Made by a program: the position numbers and the translations under genes. This document shows, in pieces, positions 1 through 4,211 of a DNA stretch of 4,211 bases (positions are counted from its first letter, which is position 1; each line of letters opens with the position of its first letter). This DNA is from a virus (lineage: Duplodnaviria; Heunggongvirae; Uroviricota; Caudoviricetes). The stretch is from IMG/VR virus record IMGVR_UViG_2684622618_000024, one strand, 5' to 3'. Below the pieces are notes generated by a model, which was not told the origin of the DNA, searched no databases, and was given only the letters and a program-made list of their open reading frames with translations.

Positions 1-1119
1 TCAAATAACCAACTTAACCCATTCCTGACCTCGAGTATCGTTATAGCGATCGGTGGTTGCCTGGACTTTATGTCCTAGTAATGTTTTTGTATCGATACCC
101 TGTGCACGGTACAGCCGTTCTGATAGAGAGCGTTGTTCATGAAATGTTGGCGGAGTTTTTCCTGCTGGTGGAATTACCCCAGCCAGATCCCGTGCTTTGG
201 CAAAGTAGTCGCTCAGGTTGTCTTTACTCATCGGCTTCGGTTGTTTCTGGTGCCGACTATGGATTAGATATGGACTTAATATTCTGTCTCGGCACCCATC
301 AATAACTTCTTTTAACGTTATCCCAATGGCATCACAGCGTAGTGTAAGCGGTAACGCCAGACGCATTCCGGTTTTTCCCTGGGTGATATGCAAGTGTTCG
401 TTCCACACATCTGAAAAACGCATGTGGCAAATGTCATCACGGCGCTGACCAGTAACAATCGCAAGAAGCATTGCGTTACGGATAAAGTGTTTTTCAGGCG
501 TTGCATTGTAAATTTTTTGCCAGTCTTCCATGGTGAGCCTGGCTCTGGTTACTTTAGGGATCGGTTTACGGGTAGCCTCCGGAGGATTCCATCCAGGAGG
601 AACTTCCCCTGCATGCTGTGCTTCTTTATAAATATCAACCCATAATCCACGATTTACTCTCGCTGTACTGACCATGTCTTTATCCAGCCACTCATCCAGT
701 ATTAATGCAAAGTCTCTTACTTCCAGTTCTTTCAATGGGTGGTTTCCCAGACGGGAAACCAGGTATGCAGCCATTCGAGTTTTTTCTTTGTGAGTTGTAG
801 CTGCAATATCTCCATTTTTCAGTCGCGTGTCCTGTATTTTCAGATATCGATCAACCCATGCCTTTAATCTGATACCCCGACGTTTTGTTGCTGACGGACT
901 TTCATCAATTTTGCGCATGAAATATTCAGCTTCTGCTGCAGCTATTCGCTGATTGGCTGTGGAAGCGATTTTTTCTGCCTTACCTTTGTCTGTTCCGAGT
1001 CCGTGAAATTTTCCAGTCACAGGATTTTTATACTGGTAGTAAACTCTGCCAGTTCTGCGATCAAACTTTTCGTAAAGACCGGCTACGTCAGTGCTGTTTT
1101 TTCGTGGCCTCGGTGACAT
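1..1119 (-). CDS. int: Tyrosine site-specific integrase, lambda Int family
   Basis: 372-aa ORF, ATG at 1119-1117, TGA stop at 3-1. Catalytic-core motifs line up with lambda Int: TGQRRDD (Arg), HITQGKTG (Lys), HEQRSLSERLY (His-x-x-Arg), LGHK (His), TTDRYNDTRG (Tyr nucleophile). N-terminal arm-binding-like region also present. Start overlaps the 3' end of xis, as in lambda. Family call is from recalled similarity, not a search. Confidence 0.94.
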   Translation of the reverse strand: MSPRPRKNSTDVAGLYEKFDRRTGRVYYQYKNPVTGKFHGLGTDKGKAEKIASTANQRIAAAEAEYFMRKIDESPSATKRRGIRLKAWVDRYLKIQDTRLKNGDIAATTHKEKTRMAAYLVSRLGNHPLKELEVRDFALILDEWLDKDMVSTARVNRGLWVDIYKEAQHAGEVPPGWNPPEATRKPIPKVTRARLTMEDWQKIYNATPEKHFIRNAMLLAIVTGQRRDDICHMRFSDVWNEHLHITQGKTGMRLALPLTLRCDAIGITLKEVIDGCRDRILSPYLIHSRHQKQPKPMSKDNLSDYFAKARDLAGVIPPAGKTPPTFHEQRSLSERLYRAQGIDTKTLLGHKVQATTDRYNDTRGQEWVKLVI

Positions 1120-1357
1120 GAGTTAAAATCTCCTTCAGTGCATCATCATCGCCAGTATGAATTTCCGGCGCAATTCCCGTTTCACCAGGCCCAACAAATA
1201 CTGCTCGGCGATCTATCAGCCAACGCCCACGAATTTTTTGTGGTCTTGGAACGATGTATCCTAGTTTTCCGTATTTCACCAGGGTAGTGTTTGTTATTGG
1301 GAGACTGAACCGTTTTGGTTTCCACTCGTCGAGCGTTATCAGGTACTGTTCGCTCAT
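1088..1357 (-). CDS. xis: Excisionase, lambda Xis-like
   Basis: ATG at 1357-1355 preceded by GGAG about 7 nt upstream; TGA stop at 1090-1088. Protein MSEQYLITLDEW...PRPQKIRGRWLIDRRAVF follows the lambda Xis pattern (YLTLQEW ... P-x-K-x-GR-x-L). The ORF track's 1366 start is a GTG three codons upstream. Overlaps int by 32 nt. Confidence 0.8.
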   Translation of the reverse strand: MSEQYLITLDEWKPKRFSLPITNTTLVKYGKLGYIVPRPQKIRGRWLIDRRAVFVGPGETGIAPEIHTGDDDALKEILTHVTEATKKQH

Positions 1358-1375
1358 GGCTATCACTCCGGAACG

Positions 1376-1407
1376 CGCCAGTTGCAGAATATCAACGACA
1401 ACTGGCG
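1376..1407. repeat. Perfect 9-bp inverted repeat CGCCAGTTG / CAACTGGCG with 14-nt spacer, just upstream of xis
   Basis: Read directly: 1376-1384 CGCCAGTTG and 1399-1407 CAACTGGCG. No flanking U-run on either strand, so not a classic intrinsic terminator; more likely a protein-binding site or RNA stem. Confidence 0.5.
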
Positions 1408-1418
1408 ACGGTTGAACA

Positions 1419-1682
1419 TTAAAAATCAGCCTGACTCGGGATCAGTTTTTGCCAGATAACTGAAACGTATTTTGCCTGGTAACGGGCGTCATCAAGTNNN
1501 NNNNNNNNNNNNNNNNNNNNNNNNNNNNNNNNNNNNNNNNNNNNNNNNNNNNNNNNNNNNNNNNNNNNNNNNNNNNNNNNATCGGTCATAATGGCAGATT
1601 GCGCTTCGCGTGATTGCTTAAGCCACCATTTAATGGTGTCCCTCGCCGTGTGCTTTCGTGTTGTGTGCCTGCTTTTTACCAC
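1419..1682 (-). CDS. Possible small basic protein, interrupted by an N-run; doubtful
   Basis: 87-codon ORF with a GTG start, spanning the 1498-1580 N-run so frame continuity cannot be verified. Sits upstream of xis in the same orientation, where lambdoid phages often carry small early-left genes. N-terminus MVKSRHTTRKHTARDTIKWW is basic; no recognisable family. Confidence 0.25.
   Translation of the reverse strand: MVKSRHTTRKHTARDTIKWWLKQSREAQSAIMTDXXXXXXXXXXXXXXXXXXXXXXXXXXXXLDDARYQAKYVSVIWQKLIPSQADF
1498..1580. other. Run of 83 N (assembly gap or masked sequence)
   Basis: Read directly. True length and content unknown. Confidence 0.99.
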
Positions 1683-1706
1683 GTCAGGCGAGGTGGTCCC
1701 CGTTAT

Positions 1707-1719
1707 TCCCCAACAACAA
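1707..1719 (+). repeat. Direct repeat copy 1, TCCCCAACAACAA
   Basis: Exact 13-mer repeated at 1740-1752, period 33 bp, in the region upstream of the 1767-2282 gene. Overlaps a small inverted repeat AACAAG-GAT-CTTGTT (1715-1729) that contains a GATC. Confidence 0.6.
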
Positions 1720-1729
1720 GGATCTTGTT

Positions 1730-1742
1730 AATCTGGATATCC
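1730..1742. repeat. Left arm of 13-bp perfect inverted repeat AATCTGGATATCC flanking the 1767-2282 gene
   Basis: 1730-1742 AATCTGGATATCC is the exact reverse complement of 2297-2309 GGATATCCAGATT. The core GGATATCC is itself palindromic. Confidence 0.6.
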
Positions 1743-1752
1743 CCAACAACAA
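1740..1752 (+). repeat. Direct repeat copy 2, TCCCCAACAACAA
   Basis: Exact copy of 1707-1719; overlaps the right end of the 13-bp inverted repeat at 1730-1742 and lies 15 bp upstream of the GTG at 1767. Confidence 0.6.
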
Positions 1753-1766
1753 TAAGAGTATTGAAT

Positions 1767-2282
1767 GTGATCGCTGAATTAACGGCAGCAATGACGGCTA
1801 TTCGTGAAACCGCCCAGATTGCAAAACTAATGAACGAGGCAAAAACTCAAGCTGAAGTAAATGCGGCTATTGGTGAACTGAACTCAAAGCTTGCATCTAT
1901 TCAGCGCGAATGCGTGTCTCTCGTTGAGCTGGTGGGCACTTATCAAGAAATAAATGCTTCTCTCAAAGCTAAAATTGCAGAATTTGAAAACTTTGAGGCT
2001 CAGACGGAAGGTTATATCCTTAGCCAACTTGAGTCGGGAACTTTTGTGTACTCGAAGGAGGTAACCGTGAACGGCGGCAGCATAATCATGCATCTTTGTC
2101 CAAAATGTTTTGGACAAAAGATAGTATCGATACTTCAGCCATTCCCGGTTAGAGAATATGAATTTTTTCATAAAAGCAGGTGCCTGTACTGTGAAAATCA
2201 GTTTCTTATGAATAAAAATCCGGATTACGTATCACCTCCATCTATTGAAGAGTTGGCCAGAAAACTGAACGGCAATCTGTAG
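1767..2282 (+). CDS. Uncharacterised protein: N-terminal coiled-coil-like region plus C-terminal paired-CxxC (zinc-ribbon-like) motif
   Basis: Longest ORF in this interval; TAG stop at 2280-2282. Likely start is GTG 1767 (AAGAG 8 nt upstream) or ATG 1791 (MTAIRETAQ...); the TTG-initiated extension back to 1614 is probably untranslated. N-terminal ~90 aa is helical and heptad-like (AKLMNEAKTQAEVNAAIGELNSKLASIQ...KAKIAEFENFEAQ). C-terminus has CPKC-x24-CLYC. No TM segment evident. By eye the 3' half is clearly more AT-rich than neighbouring genes. Opposite strand to int/xis and the PL-like operon. I do not recognise the family. Confidence 0.7.
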   Translation: MIAELTAAMTAIRETAQIAKLMNEAKTQAEVNAAIGELNSKLASIQRECVSLVELVGTYQEINASLKAKIAEFENFEAQTEGYILSQLESGTFVYSKEVTVNGGSIIMHLCPKCFGQKIVSILQPFPVREYEFFHKSRCLYCENQFLMNKNPDYVSPPSIEELARKLNGNL

Positions 2283-2296
2283 ATTTTTACTGTTAT

Positions 2297-2309
2297 GGAT
2301 ATCCAGATT
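2297..2309. repeat. Right arm of 13-bp perfect inverted repeat (GGATATCCAGATT)
   Basis: Exact reverse complement of 1730-1742; starts 15 bp after the stop codon of the 1767-2282 gene. Confidence 0.6.
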
Positions 2310-2396
2310 GTTAAAGAGCATGCCGGATGCTTGCTTGTGTCCGGCGCGTGTGCACCACTCTCCCCCCGTGGAGGATTCCTTAATTACCAGATTTCA

Positions 2397-2627
2397 TTAG
2401 TCAGAGTTTCTTGCTAACCAGCGACGCGCGCCAGATTCGGTTTTAAACGTTTTGCTTTTGGTATACGTCATCGCGGTGAACGTGCCGTCCTGGTTGGGAA
2501 ACACGCCGCACACCAGAGATTCGTTGTTGCCAAGATCAAGAGTATCCATGCTGACCTCATATCCCCTTAACGCCGGGGTAGCGGAACAAAAACCTGCTGC
2601 ATAGTTAAAGTTGAACCCTGCCGTCAT
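2397..2627 (-). CDS. Hypothetical 76-aa protein, first ORF downstream of the PL-like promoter
   Basis: ATG at 2627-2625 with GAGG/AAGAA purine-rich stretch upstream; TAA stop at 2399-2397. Sequence MTAGFNFNYAAGF...ESGARRWLARNSD is not arginine-rich at the N-terminus, so not an N-type antiterminator. Resembles the small uncharacterised genes left of racR in Rac-type prophages, but I cannot name the family confidently. Confidence 0.62.
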   Translation of the reverse strand: MTAGFNFNYAAGFCSATPALRGYEVSMDTLDLGNNESLVCGVFPNQDGTFTAMTYTKSKTFKTESGARRWLARNSD

Positions 2628-2679
2628 GTTCTTACGCCTCGGGCTGGCTACTTAATCCCTGACCACTGCCGGGTAACTC

Positions 2680-2769
2680 TAGGTATTGCCCTGTATTGTG
2701 TGGGACGGGATGGGTTGGTATGGGAAAACTATAGGAAATGCCTAATTGCTTGTCAATAGGCTACGCCTA
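2680..2769. promoter_or_regulatory. OL-like operator array: TAGGC-N3-GCCTA palindromes
   Basis: 2757-2769 TAGGCTACGCCTA (perfect arms); 2732-2744 TAGGAAATGCCTA (one arm mismatch); 2680-2692 TAGGTATTGCCCT (degenerate). Centre-to-centre spacing 25 and 52 bp, in phase. Same motif as the array right of racR. Confidence 0.5.
2728..2756 (-). promoter_or_regulatory. PL-like sigma70 promoter directing leftward transcription
   Basis: On the minus strand: -35 TTGACA (plus 2756-2751), 17-bp spacer, -10 TATAGT (plus 2733-2728). Operator-like palindromes overlap the spacer/-10 and abut the -35. Predicted leader of about 95 nt to the ATG at 2627. Confidence 0.55.
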
Positions 2770-2828
2770 ATGATTTGGGTGCGACCTAATAGGTGATGGT
2801 TTGTGGGAGAGGTAGTAGGAGTTAACTA

Positions 2829-2850
2829 ACGGGAACTAGGAATTTCCCGT
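2829..2850. other. Hairpin-capable inverted repeat ACGGGAA / TTCCCGT just 3' of racR
   Basis: 2829-2835 ACGGGAA and 2844-2850 TTCCCGT, 8-nt loop. Lies 15-36 nt downstream of the racR stop on the minus strand. No clear U-tract, so a terminator role is uncertain. Confidence 0.3.
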
Positions 2851-2864
2851 CGGACCATATAAGT

Positions 2865-3341
2865 TTAAGTTCCTGTCTTGGTGATGTTCTGGCTTTTCCG
2901 TTTTGATTCTTGATTTTTCAGATAGTTAGCTACCTTCATTTCCATTGCGGCAATGTAGGCACGAACGTCATGATCAACCCAACTAGGCTCCGTAGCATTT
3001 CCAGATAAGAGGAAAGCCACAATTGCTCTTTTTTCATCAGAGGCGGCTTGATAAAGGCTGTTTATGTCTAAAAGTTCACTTTTTGTATCTGAAGTGGATG
3101 GGGTTGGTATGGGGTATTCGTTAAGCCCCCAATGCTCTGGACCAACCACATCAGAAAAGAAACGCCATAGTTCTGGAAGTTTGTCTTTACTTATCGAACC
3201 TTTCTTAATCCAGTCATGGATTGATGGTGGTTGGACTTTGAAATGACGTGCGATTTCCGCCTTTGATTTGACGGCTCCTGATGCAATTTTTTTGTTAATG
3301 GCCTGCTCTATCGCTCGGCCTAAGTCTTTACCACTAAGCAT
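2865..3341 (-). CDS. racR: RacR-like prophage repressor (HTH, cI functional analogue)
   Basis: 158-aa ORF, ATG at 3341-3339 with AGGAGA about 10 nt upstream. HTH segment AEIARHFKVQPPSIHDWIKKG. Length, sequence as I recall it, and position divergent from ydaS/ydaT match RacR of E. coli Rac-type prophages. Too short to carry a LexA/cI-type S24 autocleavage domain. Confidence 0.85.
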   Translation of the reverse strand: MLSGKDLGRAIEQAINKKIASGAVKSKAEIARHFKVQPPSIHDWIKKGSISKDKLPELWRFFSDVVGPEHWGLNEYPIPTPSTSDTKSELLDINSLYQAASDEKRAIVAFLLSGNATEPSWVDHDVRAYIAAMEMKVANYLKNQESKRKSQNITKTGT

Positions 3342-3370
3342 TGCTTAATAGTCTCCTATGCGCATCGCAT

Positions 3371-3434
3371 TAGGCAATGCCTACTCTCGAAGTGTTAGGC
3401 ATAGCCTATTGACAATTGCATTAGGCTAAGCCTA
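3371..3434. promoter_or_regulatory. OR-like operator array: three TAGGC-N3-GCCTA palindromes between racR and ydaS
   Basis: 3371-3383 TAGGCAATGCCTA, 3396-3408 TAGGCATAGCCTA, 3422-3434 TAGGCTAAGCCTA; all have perfect 5-bp arms. Centres 25 and 26 bp apart, comparable to the three-site lambda OR layout. The third site overlaps the spacer and -10 of the PR-like promoter. Confidence 0.62.
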
Positions 3435-3438
3435 ATAT
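3409..3438 (+). promoter_or_regulatory. PR-like sigma70 promoter for ydaS/ydaT
   Basis: -35 TTGACA (3409-3414), 18-bp spacer, -10 TAATAT (3433-3438); GGAG at 3454-3457; ATG at 3466. Confidence 0.6.
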
Positions 3439-3465
3439 TATTGTGTGTTTTTTGGAGTTCATTCG

Positions 3466-3789
3466 ATGAAAAAAGATAACTATTCATTCAAACGAGCTTG
3501 TGCTGTTGTCGGTGGGCAATCAGCAATGGCTAGGCTTTTAGGTGTATCTCCTCCAAGCGTAAATCAATGGATCAAAGGTGTACGTCAGTTGCCTGCTGAG
3601 AGATGTCCTGCGATTGAACGAGCAACAAAAGGTGGTGTCCTGTGTGAAGAACTTCGTCCTGATGTTGATTGGACATACTTACGACGCTCGTCATGTTATT
3701 CGCAGAATATGTCGATGAAGCAACCAAATGACGAAAACGATCATACCCGAAGCATCAAGAGGCAAATGATTCATGAAAATCAAACATGA
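3466..3789 (+). CDS. ydaS: Cro/YdaS-family HTH regulator
   Basis: ATG at 3466 with GGAG 8 nt upstream (the ORF-track 3445 start is a GTG further up); TGA stop at 3787-3789. MKKDNYSFKRACAVVGGQSAMARLLGVSPPSVNQWIKG is a Cro-like HTH that closely matches E. coli Rac YdaS as I recall it. Its recognition segment PPSVNQWIKG is near-identical to RacR's PPSIHDWIKKG. Confidence 0.85.
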   Translation: MKKDNYSFKRACAVVGGQSAMARLLGVSPPSVNQWIKGVRQLPAERCPAIERATKGGVLCEELRPDVDWTYLRRSSCYSQNMSMKQPNDENDHTRSIKRQMIHENQT

Positions 3790-4060
3790 GCACATCCGCA
3801 TGGCGATGAATGCCTGGGCATATCCTGATGGTGAGAAAGTTCCTGCAGCTGAAATAGCCCGGACTTATTTCGAACTGGGGATGACGTTCCCGGAACTGTA
3901 CGACGACAGCCATCCGGAAGCCCTGGCTCGTAATACNNNNNNNNNNNNNNNNNNNNNNNNNNNNNNNNNNNNNNNNNNNNNNNNNNNNNNNNNNNTTGAC
4001 CAACAATATTCATGCCGGATTTCTTCCGGATGTTCGAGGGTAAAGTTCGGTATCAGATGA
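3773..4060 (+). CDS. ydaT: YdaT-like protein (CII functional analogue in Rac-type prophages); 3' part and length uncertain because of the N-run
   Basis: ATG at 3773 overlaps the ydaS stop by 17 nt. N-terminus MKIKHEHI... matches the YdaT N-terminus as I recall it. Sequence is reliable only to 3936. After the gap the frame is unknown: one frame stops at 4058-4060, another at 4041-4043. Recalled YdaT is about 140 aa, so the gap probably under-represents the real length. Confidence 0.6.
   Translation: MKIKHEHIRMAMNAWAYPDGEKVPAAEIARTYFELGMTFPELYDDSHPEALARNXXXXXXXXXXXXXXXXXXXXXDQQYSCRISSGCSRVKFGIR
3937..3995. other. Run of 59 N (assembly gap or masked sequence) inside the ydaT-like gene
   Basis: Read directly. 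Confidence 0.99.
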
Positions 4061-4067
4061 GGTGAGT

Positions 4068-4211
4068 ATGGCTAATGCCTGGCTCAGATTGTGGCATGAC
4101 ATGCCAAATGATCCCAAATGGCGAACCATTGCCAGGGTCTCAGGACAGCCAATCGCAACAGTGATGGCGGTGTATATCCACCTTCTGGTGAGTGCGTCAC
4201 GAAATGTCACG
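4068..4211 (+). CDS. 5' fragment of a rightward gene (48 codons, runs off the window); possibly a YdaU-like replication-region protein
   Basis: ATG at 4068 with GAGG at 4059-4062; open to the window end. Translation MANAWLRLWHDMPNDPKWRTIARVSGQPIATVMAVYIHLLVSASRNVT. Position after ydaT matches the replication-gene slot in Rac-type prophages; family assignment is tentative. Confidence 0.5.
   Translation, partial: MANAWLRLWHDMPNDPKWRTIARVSGQPIATVMAVYIHLLVSASRNVT

What the first reader, a model, noticed from the sequence alone, without database searches (positions are those of the whole stretch)
1707..2309. Orphan plus-strand gene for a coiled-coil plus paired-CxxC protein, bracketed by a 13-bp perfect inverted repeat, in the exclusion-gene slot
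Seen: the 1767-2282 ORF encodes about 165-172 aa with a heptad-like helical N-terminus and a C-terminal CPKC-x24-CLYC motif. It is antisense to int/xis and to the PL-like promoter, and its 3' half is visibly AT-rich. AATCTGGATATCC (1730-1742) and its exact reverse complement (2297-2309) sit 25 bp before the start and 15 bp after the stop. Established: lambdoid prophages carry lysogen-expressed exclusion or defence genes on the opposite strand at this position (sieB in lambda and Rac). Inference: this is a moron, possibly a defence, exclusion or abortive-infection factor with a zinc-ribbon sensor or effector. Alternatively the inverted repeats mark an invertible cassette that would flip the gene into the PL transcript.
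Basis: partly seen in the sequence, partly recalled or inferred. Interest (0 to 1): 0.78.

Follow-up and report, generated by a model that had tools for sequence, protein, structure and literature searches.

The report
Rip1-type phage-defence gene in prophage dock
The gene is a prophage copy of the recently described Rip1 pore-forming anti-phage defence protein. Its flanking inverted repeat is not a flip switch but the conserved closing stem of a slot in the phage's early operon where different defence genes are swapped in.

Summary
ORF 1767-2282 (GTG start, 171 aa; ECs_1504 of E. coli O157:H7 Sakai prophage Sp6) has a helical N-terminus and four invariant Cys. It is bracketed by an exact 13-bp inverted repeat (IR).

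It is not an orphan. It belongs to the Rip1 ('ring interacting pore 1') family (Patel et al., Nature 2026). The family profile hits PDB 9oox (phage HK446 Rip1 with T6 small terminase) at E=3.8e-29. The AF2 model (pLDDT 92) has 9oox as its only significant fold match. It sits in the sieB slot of a Rac-like prophage, so the defence-moron reading is supported.

The invertible-cassette reading is not supported. None of 5426 complete E. coli genomes shows the flipped arrangement, and no invertase gene is seen.

The IR belongs to a conserved frame present in 20-28% of complete E. coli genomes. That frame holds at least five unrelated cargo gene families, and the arms stay complementary when their sequence changes.

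On the early-operon (minus) strand the right arm directly follows an exact rrn-type boxA (UGCUCUUUAACAAU). I infer a Nus-dependent antitermination and processing leader that lets early transcription cross the antisense cargo.

The gene is a new member of a known kind. I found no description of the dock.

The parts
1653..1729 (+). Conserved upstream leader block of the cargo frame. It contains the hairpin GCCUG...CAGGC and the first TCCCCAACAACAA copy. It presumably carries the cargo promoter and 5' leader, but no consensus sigma-70 promoter was found.
   Evidence: Homology between Rac-like and DLP12-like contexts starts at about 1653-1659. The block is conserved across genera more strongly than the coding sequence. 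It is present in 1513 of 5426 E. coli genomes. It is homologous to the K-12 Rac sieB leader, with a compensatory change in the hairpin. No promoter was called.
1730..1755 (.). Left arm of the inverted repeat: 13 bp exact at 1730-1742, extended arm to 1755. On the minus-strand early RNA this is the 3' strand of the long-range stem.
   Evidence: The arm sits at a fixed 24 nt before the start codon in 15 or more genera and loci.
1755..1759 (+). Shine-Dalgarno-like AAGAG, 7 nt before the GTG start codon.
   Evidence: Read directly from the sequence. GAG is invariant in the alignment.
1767..2282 (+). Rip1-family gene (ECs_1504), 171 aa. N-terminal amphipathic helices 2-79; C-terminal beta domain with the four-Cys motif C111/C114/C139/C142.
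2284..2309 (.). Right arm of the inverted repeat: 13 bp exact at 2297-2309, extended from 2284. On the minus-strand early RNA this is the 5' strand of the stem.
2307..2320 (-). Exact rrn-type boxA (UGCUCUUUA, 2320->2312) plus spacer ACAAU (2311->2307) on the early-operon strand, overlapping the start of the stem arm.
   Evidence: One search gives the exact 14-mer as the only match in the window. rrn boxA and the rrnG boxA-spacer sequence come from PMC2724277. The same motif is the boxA of the annotated HK620 nutL and nutR. GTTAAAGAGC is nearly invariant in all frames.
2322..2345 (-). Hairpin GCCGGA-N12-UCCGGC immediately upstream of boxA on the minus strand, in the rrn-like order hairpin then boxA. 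In DLP12-type frames its place is taken by the antisense of the cargo's intrinsic terminator.
   Evidence: Read from the sequence. Frame variants. Terminator called.
2397..2627 (-). DUF1391 (ydaF-like) gene, the first gene of the leftward early operon. It lies between the PL-like promoter and the boxA.
   Evidence: Pfam PF07151, E=6.6e-30; annotation.
2728..2756 (-). PL-like sigma-70 promoter (TTGACA-17-TATAGT) that drives leftward transcription through the frame.
   Evidence: 11 of 12 matches. This is a consensus match only.
1419..1682 (-). C-terminal remnant of recE (exonuclease VIII). A roughly 2.9-kb deletion relative to strain M8 joins it to the frame at about 1642, removing most of recE plus the DUF1482 gene, dicB and the spacer.

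Best explanation
**(A) The gene (shown by homology).** ECs_1504 is a Rip1-family anti-phage defence protein.
- By analogy with the characterised Rip1 proteins, it is made in the lysogen as a harmless soluble protein.
- When a superinfecting phage reaches late gene expression, its C-terminal four-Cys domain docks around a ring-shaped phage oligomer, either the small terminase or the portal.
- The templated roughly 12-mer of N-terminal amphipathic helices then forms a membrane pore.
- The pore kills the cell before progeny are completed, which is abortive infection.

**(B) The inverted repeat (inferred).** The repeat is not a property of this gene. It is the closing stem of a conserved 'cargo dock' built into the early operon of lambdoid prophages in which no N gene is annotated.
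- Read on the early-transcript (minus) strand, the order is: hairpin, exact rrn-type boxA UGCUCUUUA with spacer ACAAU, 5' stem arm, about 0.55 kb of antisense cargo, 3' stem arm, leader block, early genes.
- I propose that boxA loads the host Nus factors, as in rRNA operons. RNA polymerase can then cross the untranslated, Rho-sensitive antisense cargo and its terminator.
- I propose that the 23-26 bp stem loops out the antisense cargo, as the RNase III stem does around 16S rRNA, and is probably processed by RNase III.
- Defence genes can therefore be exchanged inside the loop without breaking early-gene expression.
For: **(A) The gene**
- The family profile against the PDB hits 9oox 'ring interacting pore 1 (Rip1)' at E=3.8e-29 over residues 4-152. 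The single sequence gives E=3.6e-7.
- BLASTP against HK446 gp37 gives 27% identity and E=5e-13. hhalign gives probability 98.9%.
- The AF2 model has pLDDT 91.9. Foldseek against the PDB gives 9oox_M and 9oox_L as the only hits with E<=0.001 (probability 1.0, TMt 0.71).
- The four Cys are invariant, including in HK620 HkaP and JBD30 gp30.
- There is no TM segment, and the N-terminal helices are amphipathic (muH about 0.4).
- Homologues always lie on the strand opposite their neighbours:
  - the lambda sieB slot in HK446, HK620 and HK630;
  - after cro in Salmonella.
- The Rip1 mechanism is summarised in PMC13434031.

**(B) The inverted repeat**
- The IR is conserved with the left arm at a fixed 24 nt before the start in Salmonella, Citrobacter, Klebsiella, Kosakonia, Symbiopectobacterium and Enterobacter, although the proteins are only 45-70% identical.
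- The same frame holds five unrelated cargo families.
- Three arm versions keep complementarity (ATATCC/GGATAT, ATGACT/AGTCAT, GGT../..ACC). Nine pairs change on both sides: 20 cells against 7.2 in shuffles, reached by 0 of 500 shuffles. The slid controls score lower.
- The exact boxA-plus-spacer 14-mer lies on the minus strand. It is the only boxA-like motif in 13 kb of Sp6, and the same motif marks the annotated HK620 nutL and nutR.
- In phage PhiR49_1 the boxA lies about 100 nt downstream of a PL-like promoter, the nutL position. In Salmonella the frame lies just after cro, the nutR position.
- On the minus strand 57 cells are G-U compatible against 17 on the plus strand.
- The minus-strand fold has 23 consecutive pairs and z=-6.0. 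The plus-strand fold has 13+4 pairs and z=-3.5.
- HK620 hkaP (N gene annotated nearby) and Pseudomonas JBD30 gp30 were tested and show no such IR.
Against: **(A) The gene**
- Identity to the solved Rip1 is only 27%.
- Nothing was tested here about expression, toxicity, trigger or phage range.
- I could not read the primary Rip1 paper; I used only a review and PDB titles.
- Sp6 carries a deletion next to the gene and may be defective.

**(B) The inverted repeat**
- This part is entirely computational.
- No compensatory change was seen within the Rip1-type cassettes alone.
- The covariation across cargo types rests on about three arm lineages, so on few independent events.
- The same complementarity would also form in the sense mRNA if its start lies upstream of 1730.
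- No plus-strand promoter could be located.
- No uninterrupted ('empty') dock was found.
- The K-12 sieB copy has the leader but neither boxA nor the right arm.
- RNase III cleavage and Nus dependence are inferred only from resemblance to rrn operons.
Confidence: 0.72

Rival explanations
1. The repeat acts in the sense (cargo) mRNA. The 5' UTR arm pairs with the 3' UTR arm next to the terminator, closing the mRNA into a panhandle. That structure would stabilise the mRNA or throttle translation of the defence gene in the lysogen.
For: The plus-strand MFE also pairs the two arms. The left arm lies just upstream of the SD, and the right arm lies just before the intrinsic terminator. The leader is highly conserved. 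Arm complementarity is kept across cargo types.
Against: No promoter upstream of the left arm could be identified, so it is unknown whether the arm is transcribed in the sense RNA. G-U-compatible substitutions favour the minus strand, 57 cells against 17. The sense helix is interrupted after 13 bp, whereas the antisense helix runs 23 bp. This reading does not explain the exact boxA on the opposite strand. It is not exclusive of the main explanation.
Confidence: 0.25
2. The arms are DNA-level sites. They could be footprints or targets of a cassette-insertion mechanism: cargo inserted at the centre of an 18-bp palindrome AATCTGGAT|ATCCAGATT, with GGATATCC duplicated. Alternatively they are paired binding sites for a host or phage protein.
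For: The two arms together reconstruct a perfect 18-bp palindrome. In the LprI-like cassette the cargo lies exactly between AATCTGGAT and ATCCAGATT. In Rip1 cassettes the 8-bp palindromic centre is present on both sides. The arm sequence, not only the complementarity, is strongly conserved.
Against: No uninterrupted palindrome was found in the viral collection. No transposase or dedicated recombinase travels with the frame. The inner arm sequences differ between cargo types yet stay complementary, as expected for a stem rather than a fixed protein site. Cargo exchange can be explained by homologous recombination in the conserved flanks.
Confidence: 0.12
3. The repeats mark an invertible cassette that flips the gene into the PL transcript.
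For: The only support is the presence of an exact 13-bp inverted repeat around the gene.
Against: No genome of 5426 complete E. coli genomes, 646 of which carry the cassette, has the flipped arrangement. No flipped junction was found in 237 loci; the two pattern hits are point substitutions. No invertase gene lies nearby. The arms are conserved around different cargo in many genera in a single orientation relative to the leader and boxA.
Confidence: 0.02
4. The protein is not a Rip1-like pore former. It would be a different zinc-ribbon factor, for example a nucleic-acid-binding regulator, or a SieB-like exclusion protein that merely shares the fold.
For: Identity to HK446 Rip1 is low, 27%. The C-terminal domain is the variable part of the family. 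It occupies the sieB slot.
Against: Homology is full-length: both the helical and the Cys domains align, with invariant Cys spacing. There is no similarity to SieB (E=40). It has no Pfam DNA-binding domain. The only significant structural neighbour is Rip1.
Confidence: 0.07

Closest known systems
Rip1 (ring interacting pore 1): phage HK446 gp37 (PDB 9oox) and the Pseudomonas casadabanvirus Rip1 (Patel et al., Nature 651:1060, 2026)
   Same: It shares full-length homology and a helical N-terminal half plus a four-Cys C-terminal domain of about 165-171 aa. It is a single-gene, prophage-borne moron on the opposite strand. HK446 and HK620 carry theirs in the lambda sieB slot, as this gene does in a Rac-like prophage.
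   Different: Identity to HK446 Rip1 is only 27% and to JBD30 gp30 about 28-30%. It belongs to an enterobacterial subclade (LKAKIAEFENF motif) that is embedded in the boxA/inverted-repeat dock, which HK620 HkaP and JBD30 gp30 lack. Its trigger and target phages are unknown.
HK620 HkaP / HK630 HkaP ('putative superinfection exclusion protein', annotation of 2001)
   Same: They belong to the same protein family (28-29% identity, four Cys conserved) and occupy the same slot between N and cIII on the opposite strand.
   Different: Those phages have N with nutL/nutR and show no flanking inverted repeat.
SieB of lambda, P22 and Rac
   Same: Slot, orientation and size are the same. The K-12 Rac sieB leader is homologous to the leader block upstream of this gene.
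   Different: The proteins are unrelated: SieB is Pfam PF14163, and BLASTP gives E=40. A separate 2-TM cargo with no Pfam SieB hit also occurs in the dock.
rrn operon leader (boxB-boxA-boxC followed by the long-range RNase III stem around 16S rRNA) and lambdoid nut sites
   Same: An exact UGCUCUUUA boxA with an ACAAU spacer is preceded by a hairpin and followed directly by one strand of a long-range stem, whose partner lies after a roughly 0.55-kb untranslated insert. The position matches nutL or nutR.
   Different: No N-like protein and no conserved boxB was recognised. The looped-out RNA is the antisense of a defence gene, not a structural RNA. The function is untested.
Noncontiguous operons and opposite-strand defence morons (Tab of JBD26; TaiEcA of phi80-like phages)
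   Same: A lysogen-expressed defence gene interrupts a lytic operon in the opposite orientation, so lytic transcription runs antisense through it (PMC10884400; PMC11364771).
   Different: Tab (83 aa) and Tai are unrelated proteins, and no anti-defence partner gene is evident here. The boxA plus stem frame is not reported for those systems in the papers I could read.

Membership tests
Rip1 (ring interacting pore 1) anti-phage defence | Sequence homology to a characterised Rip1 over the full length | tested here: met
   Profile against PDB 9oox: E=3.8e-29, residues 4-152. Single sequence: E=3.6e-7. BLASTP against HK446 gp37: E=5e-13, 27% identity. hhalign: 98.9%.
Rip1 (ring interacting pore 1) anti-phage defence | Fold: N-terminal amphipathic helices plus a C-terminal ring-binding domain | tested here: met
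   The AF2 model has pLDDT 91.9. Foldseek against the PDB returns only 9oox_M and 9oox_L as significant (probability 1.0, TMt 0.71/0.53). Helices 7-54 have muH about 0.4, and there is no TM segment. The solved chains cover about 125 residues, so the far N-terminus is not compared.
Rip1 (ring interacting pore 1) anti-phage defence | Conserved paired CxxC motifs (presumed metal site) in the C-terminal domain | tested here: inconclusive
   The four Cys are invariant in the family, including HK446, HK620 and JBD30. Whether they bind one metal ion could not be measured, because no coordinates were accessible.
Rip1 (ring interacting pore 1) anti-phage defence | Single prophage gene with its own expression signals, on the strand opposite the surrounding lytic operon | tested here: met
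   No promoter was located.
Rip1 (ring interacting pore 1) anti-phage defence | Non-toxic alone; activated by oligomeric rings of phage small terminase or portal; forms a pore; abortive infection | not testable with these tools
   Known only from the review of Patel et al. 2026 (PMC13434031). It needs wet-lab assays.
SieB superinfection exclusion | Membership of Pfam SieB (PF14163) | tested here: not met
   No Pfam hit for the protein. K-12 SieB hits PF14163 at 1.5e-31. The pairwise comparison gives E=40. Only the genomic slot and leader are shared.
Site-specific invertible segment (Hin/Gin/Cin or Fim type) | Both orientations of the segment occur in populations or genomes | tested here: not met
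   No genome of 5426 has the flipped arrangement, and no flipped junction occurs in 237 loci.
Site-specific invertible segment (Hin/Gin/Cin or Fim type) | A dedicated invertase or recombinase gene next to the segment | tested here: not met
   Only the prophage int and xis are present, 0.4-1.7 kb away. Other contexts also lack an invertase.
boxA-dependent (Nus factor) antitermination site (rrn leader or lambdoid nut) | boxA consensus on the transcribed strand of the operon | tested here: met
   UGCUCUUUAACAAU at 2320->2307 on the minus strand is identical to 14 nt of the rrnG boxA-spacer. It is conserved in all frames. The motif coincides with the annotated HK620 nutL and nutR.
boxA-dependent (Nus factor) antitermination site (rrn leader or lambdoid nut) | Position shortly downstream of an early promoter | tested here: met
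   It lies about 100 nt downstream of the PL-like promoter in PhiR49_1 and just after cro in Salmonella L011. In Sp6 it lies about 410 nt downstream, after the DUF1391 gene. The promoters are consensus matches only.
boxA-dependent (Nus factor) antitermination site (rrn leader or lambdoid nut) | NusB/NusE binding and suppression of Rho-dependent termination | not testable with these tools
   It requires nusB/nusE or boxA mutants and read-through reporters.

The most novel reading that the evidence does not exclude
The inverted repeat, the adjacent exact rrn-type boxA and the conserved leader together form an undescribed plug-in dock in the nutL/nutR-equivalent leader of lambdoid prophages with no annotated N gene. 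I read it as an rRNA-operon-like antitermination and processing module. It would insulate early transcription from an antisense, freely exchangeable defence-gene cargo. Cargoes seen are Rip1, the ECs1072 family, a 2-TM protein, an LprI-like secreted protein and others. Lytic antisense transcription through the dock might also shut off the defence gene when the prophage itself is induced.
Probability: 0.4. Interest if true: 0.72.

Novelty: new member of a known kind. Interest (0 to 1): 0.5.

Why it matters
The gene gives O157:H7 prophage Sp6, and about 12% of complete E. coli genomes, a candidate Rip1-type abortive-infection defence. That bears on phage therapy, on biocontrol of EHEC, and on competition among the many lambdoid prophages of these strains.

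The more general point is the dock. A conserved leader, stem and boxA frame is present in 20-28% of complete E. coli genomes and carries interchangeable small genes. Three uses follow:
- The frame sequence could be used as bait to harvest new single-gene defence candidates.
- It would explain how phages tolerate an opposite-strand moron inside an essential early operon.
- It makes a concrete prediction that Nus factors and RNase III act on prophage early transcripts in phages that lack N.

Tried and rejected
**Searches that found nothing useful**
- Pfam, NCBIfam and PADLOC gave only weak coiled-coil noise for the protein. PHROGs gave phrog_1244, 'unknown function'.
- Rfam at E<=1 found nothing in the window.
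- The sigma-70 scans found no plus-strand promoter for the gene in Sp6 or IHE3034. My manual candidates were all weak, so I name none.

**Ideas tested and dropped**
- Tab of JBD26 shares the Pseudomonas slot but is an unrelated 83-aa protein.
- Within Rip1-type cassettes alone, RNAalifold and pair counting showed no compensatory change. Covariation appeared only when other cargo types were included.
- A search for an uninterrupted dock (arms 0-30 nt apart) in the viral collection found none.
- Strain OkiPb01712 first looked like an empty site. It is a remnant: 1804-2374 was deleted at an ATTC microhomology, and the first 37 nt of the ORF are kept.
- My first junction patterns for inversion were ambiguous because of the repeat's symmetry. 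I redid them with outer-flank bases.

**Literature limits**
- The primary Rip1 paper and two Pseudomonas moron papers are not held.
- No paper mentions ECs1504.
- A literature search for a described sieB-slot hotspot or boxA dock found nothing specific.
- CsrA, Hfq or GcvB sites in the CA-rich leader were only recalled from memory and were not tested, so I make no claim about them.
Full report
**What is there**

The window is 100% identical to prophage Sp6 of E. coli O157:H7 Sakai, which sits next to potC. The layout in window coordinates is:
- int, 1-1119 (-)
- xis, 1088-1366 (-)
- a C-terminal remnant of recE / exonuclease VIII, 1419-1682 (-), a pseudogene in PGAP
- the target ORF, 1767-2282 (+), annotated ECs_1504
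- a DUF1391 / ydaF-like gene, 2397-2627 (-)
- racR, 2865-3341 (-)
- ydaS- and ydaT-like genes (+)

Compared with strain M8, Sp6 has lost about 2.9 kb: most of recE, the DUF1482 gene, dicB and the spacer. The junction lies at about 1642, just left of the region discussed here.

**Checking the observation**

- The ORF starts with GTG, is 171 aa long, and has AAGAG 7 nt upstream.
- The motif is CPKC-x24-CLYC. All four Cys are invariant in alignments reaching 26-28% identity.
- The AF2 model (pLDDT 91.9) shows two long helices, 2-23 and 28-79, followed by a beta-rich domain.
- The 13-bp arms at 1730-1742 and 2297-2309 are exact. They are unique in the window, and no shuffle matched them.
- GC falls to 35-44% in the ORF, against about 50% outside.
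- The gene is antisense to all its neighbours and to a PL-like promoter at 2756->2728.

**What the protein is**

Curated family libraries gave nothing. PHROGs placed it in phrog_1244, function unknown.

Homologues are abundant: 109 clusters in the indexed search and 3312 representatives at E<=1e-3 in the exhaustive search. A tblastn search of phage records found:
- 94% identity in ECOR13 phages;
- 51% in Klebsiella phages;
- about 29-31% in HK620/HK630 HkaP ('putative superinfection exclusion protein') and in Pseudomonas DMS3, JBD30 and D3112;
- 27% in HK446.

The decisive result came from the PDB. The family profile hits chain 9oox_L, 'ring interacting pore 1 (Rip1)', at E=3.8e-29. Foldseek of the AF2 model returns 9oox as the only significant match; that entry is the cryo-EM structure of phage HK446 Rip1 in complex with T6 small terminase. 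Direct comparison with HK446 gp37 gives E=5e-13 and an hhalign probability of 98.9%.

I could not read the primary paper, Patel et al., Nature 651:1060, 2026. A 2026 review summarises it as follows (PMC13434031):
- Rip1 is a prophage protein encoded between the terminase genes of a Pseudomonas phage.
- It is harmless on its own.
- Escape mutants map to the portal in Pseudomonas phages and to the small terminase in E. coli phages.
- Twelve Rip1 monomers ring an 11-mer of small terminase, and the assembly forms a pore that lyses the cell prematurely.
- The N-terminal half is an amphipathic helix, and the C-terminal half contacts the ring.

The Sp6 protein fits this description. It has amphipathic helices, no transmembrane segment, and a conserved Cys domain. 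I therefore file it as a new, untested member of the Rip1 family.

**Genomic slot**

In K-12 Rac the order is kilR(-), kilS, sieB(+), ydaF/DUF1391(-), ydaG, racR. In strain M8 it is dicB(-), the Rip1 homologue(+), DUF1391(-). HK446 Rip1 and HK620 HkaP lie between N and cIII on the opposite strand, which is the lambda sieB slot.

In every context examined the gene opposes its neighbours:
- the PL side in Rac-like and DLP12/yfd-like prophages;
- the PR side just after cro in Salmonella;
- between the terminase genes in JBD30.

**The inverted repeat is not an inversion switch**

A synthetic query with 1743-2296 flipped found no genome among 5426 complete E. coli genomes with a place covering 80% or more. 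The best place was 69%, which is the inner segment alone. Of those genomes, 646 carry the cassette. Junction-specific patterns found no flipped junction in 237 loci. No invertase gene is present.

The DNA shared between Rac-like and DLP12-like contexts runs from 1659 to 2319. The left arm therefore lies about 70 bp inside the shared module.

**What the repeat is**

Three findings change the picture.

1. *The arms are conserved far beyond the coding sequence.* In Salmonella, Citrobacter, Klebsiella, Kosakonia, Scandinavium, Symbiopectobacterium and Enterobacter the proteins are only 45-70% identical. Even so, the left arm sits exactly 24 nt before the start. The right arm follows the stop by 0-46 nt, then comes GTTAAAGAGC and, in most loci, an intrinsic terminator.

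2. *The frame is not specific to Rip1.*
   - The roughly 100-nt leader occurs in 1513 E. coli genomes and the right-hand block in 1090, against 655 with this gene.
   - Between the same arms I found five unrelated cargo families:

   | Cargo family | Loci |
   |---|---|
   | Rip1-like | 119 |
   | 'ECs1072 family' protein plus a small reverse gene | 64 |
   | 2-TM protein | 8 |
   | LprI-like secreted protein | 9 |
   | 98-aa protein | 1 |

   - The inner arm sequences differ between cargo types but stay complementary: ATATCC/GGATAT, ATGACT/AGTCAT and GGT.../...ACC.
   - On 40 distinct arm pairs, 9 of 20 pairs show changes on both sides: 20 cells against 7.2 in shuffles, reached by 0 of 500 shuffles. 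All slid controls score lower.
   - Within Rip1 cassettes alone there is no covariation. The events are few, about three arm lineages.

3. *The conserved GTTAAAGAGC next to the right arm reads, on the opposite strand, as boxA.*
   - In Sp6 the sequence is UGCUCUUUAACAAU (2320->2307). This is identical to 14 nt of the rrnG boxA-spacer; rrn boxA is UGCUCUUUA (PMC2724277).
   - The same motif is exactly what HK620's authors annotated as the boxA of nutL and nutR.
   - It is the only such motif in 13 kb of Sp6.
   - It lies on the strand of the early leftward operon and is preceded by a hairpin. In Sp6 the hairpin is 2345->2322; in other frames it is the antisense of the cargo terminator.
   - It is followed at once by the stem arm.
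   - In the functional phage PhiR49_1 it lies about 100 nt downstream of a PL-like promoter (TTGACA-16-CATAAT). In Salmonella it lies just after cro. These are the positions of nutL and nutR.

**Proposed mechanism of the dock (inferred)**

On the early transcript the order is: hairpin, boxA, 5' stem arm, about 0.55 kb of untranslated antisense cargo, 3' stem arm, leader, early genes. This is the architecture of an rRNA operon leader, where boxA is followed by the long-range RNase III stem that loops out 16S rRNA. That comparison rests on established knowledge from memory, except for the boxA sequences, which I checked.

An untranslated insert should provoke Rho-dependent polarity. According to PMC2724277 (citing Berg et al.), rrn boxA-spacer with a few upstream residues is sufficient to suppress Rho-dependent terminators.

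Three observations favour the early (minus) strand as the strand on which the stem matters:
- the boxA itself lies on that strand;
- G-U-compatible substitutions number 57 cells on the minus strand against 17 on the plus strand over 20 pairs;
- the minus-strand fold has a 23-bp uninterrupted helix and z=-6.0, against 13+4 bp and z=-3.5 for the sense strand.

A helix of that length is a plausible RNase III substrate, but that is an inference. The two more distant homologues tested for the repeat, HK620 hkaP (whose phage has N and annotated nut sites) and Pseudomonas JBD30 gp30, lack it. That fits the dock serving phages without N, although I did not test for unannotated N-like genes.

The arrangement is a 'noncontiguous operon' of the kind noted for TaiEcA (PMC11364771). 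Lytic antisense transcription might also silence the defence gene when the prophage itself is induced. That last point is speculation.

**Rivals**

- The same complementarity could act in the sense mRNA as 5'-3' UTR pairing. I cannot exclude this, because no sense promoter or TSS could be located. It may coexist with the main explanation.
- A DNA-level origin or function is suggested by the fact that the two arms reconstruct a perfect 18-bp palindrome, AATCTGGAT|ATCCAGATT, with cargo at its centre. However, no empty palindrome was found, and the inner arms covary.
- Inversion is effectively excluded.

**Novelty and verdict**

The gene is a new, uncharacterised member of a family published in 2026. 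The defence-moron reading is right, 'orphan' is wrong, and inversion is wrong.

I did not find the dock described in the literature I could search. The dock comprises the leader, the covarying long-range stem, the exact boxA and the interchangeable cargo. It is a computational inference that makes clear, cheap experimental predictions.

I score interest at 0.5. That is low for the gene's identity as such, and raised by the dock.

Noticed in passing
window 1498-1580 and 3937-3995: Two runs of N (masked sequence) interrupt the recE remnant and the ydaT-like region. The corresponding bases are present in the public Sakai record (L001).
   Followed up: partly
window about 1641-1643; L008 (strain M8) 522 to 3442: Sp6 carries a roughly 2.9-kb deletion relative to strain M8. 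It fuses the recE C-terminus to the dock leader and removes most of recE, the DUF1482 gene, dicB and a roughly 400-bp spacer. By analogy with K-12 kilS, that spacer might hold a DicF/KilS-like sRNA.
   Followed up: partly
L010 (E. coli OkiPb01712) 3445-3944: This is a remnant of the same cassette. The leader and the first 37 nt of the rip1-like ORF are kept, and window 1804-2374 is deleted between two ATTC microhomologies. This is gene loss, not an empty site.
   Followed up: yes
L009 (E. coli CUVM3) about 4095-4100: The right arm is cut after GGATA by a rearrangement that joins the cassette to a DUF968 fragment and quuD, removing the immunity and replication region of that DLP12-like prophage.
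   Followed up: partly
L113 (K-12 Rac) 7050-7171 compared with window 1653-1766: The sieB leader of Rac is homologous to the dock leader. It shows a compensatory change in the first hairpin (GCCUG/CAGGC here, CCCGG/CCGGG in K-12), and the CCAC/GUGG segment is kept. Together the two helices would be interleaved, either as a pseudoknot or as alternative structures. K-12 lacks the right arm and boxA.
   Followed up: partly
L115 (EC25) 2599-3211; L117 (HB37) 2599-3111; L134, L181 and L228 types: Alternative cargo in the same dock:
- an 'ECs1072 family phage-associated protein' (144-151 aa) with a 68-aa reverse gene;
- a 170-aa signal-peptide protein with a weak LprI (lysozyme inhibitor) match;
- a 150-162-aa 2-TM protein;
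- a 98-aa protein.

None has a PADLOC match above noise, so all are candidate exclusion or defence genes.
   Followed up: partly
window 1707-1719 and 1740-1752: An exact 13-nt direct repeat, TCCCCAACAACAA, flanks the left arm. Both copies are conserved across genera. The CA-rich (AAC)n tracts lie just upstream of the SD. Their role (translation enhancer, or an sRNA or Hfq site) is unknown.
   Followed up: no
window 2095-2118: A perfect 11-nt palindrome, TTTGTCCAAAA/TTTTGGACAAA, with a 2-nt loop lies inside the ORF, over the CPKCFGQ codons. It is also present in the 65%-identity homologue L014. It may be incidental to the coding sequence.
   Followed up: no
window 2275-2310: A local 7-bp hairpin, CAATCTG...CAGATTG, joins the last codons and stop (GGC AAT CTG TAG) to the right arm. 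It competes with the long-range stem. It is conserved only in the E. coli and Salmonella Rip1 subclade. On the minus strand it would sit where a boxB hairpin follows boxA.
   Followed up: partly
L116 (O145:H28 strain 16003) 2501-2900: Here the dock leader and left arm are followed by different short ORFs and then an IS3-family insertion. The right arm and boxA were not found within the stretch read.
   Followed up: no
window 2865-3789: The immunity region is of the Rac type, with racR(-) divergent from ydaS- and ydaT-like genes(+). No N-like gene is annotated between the PL-like promoter and the dock.
   Followed up: partly
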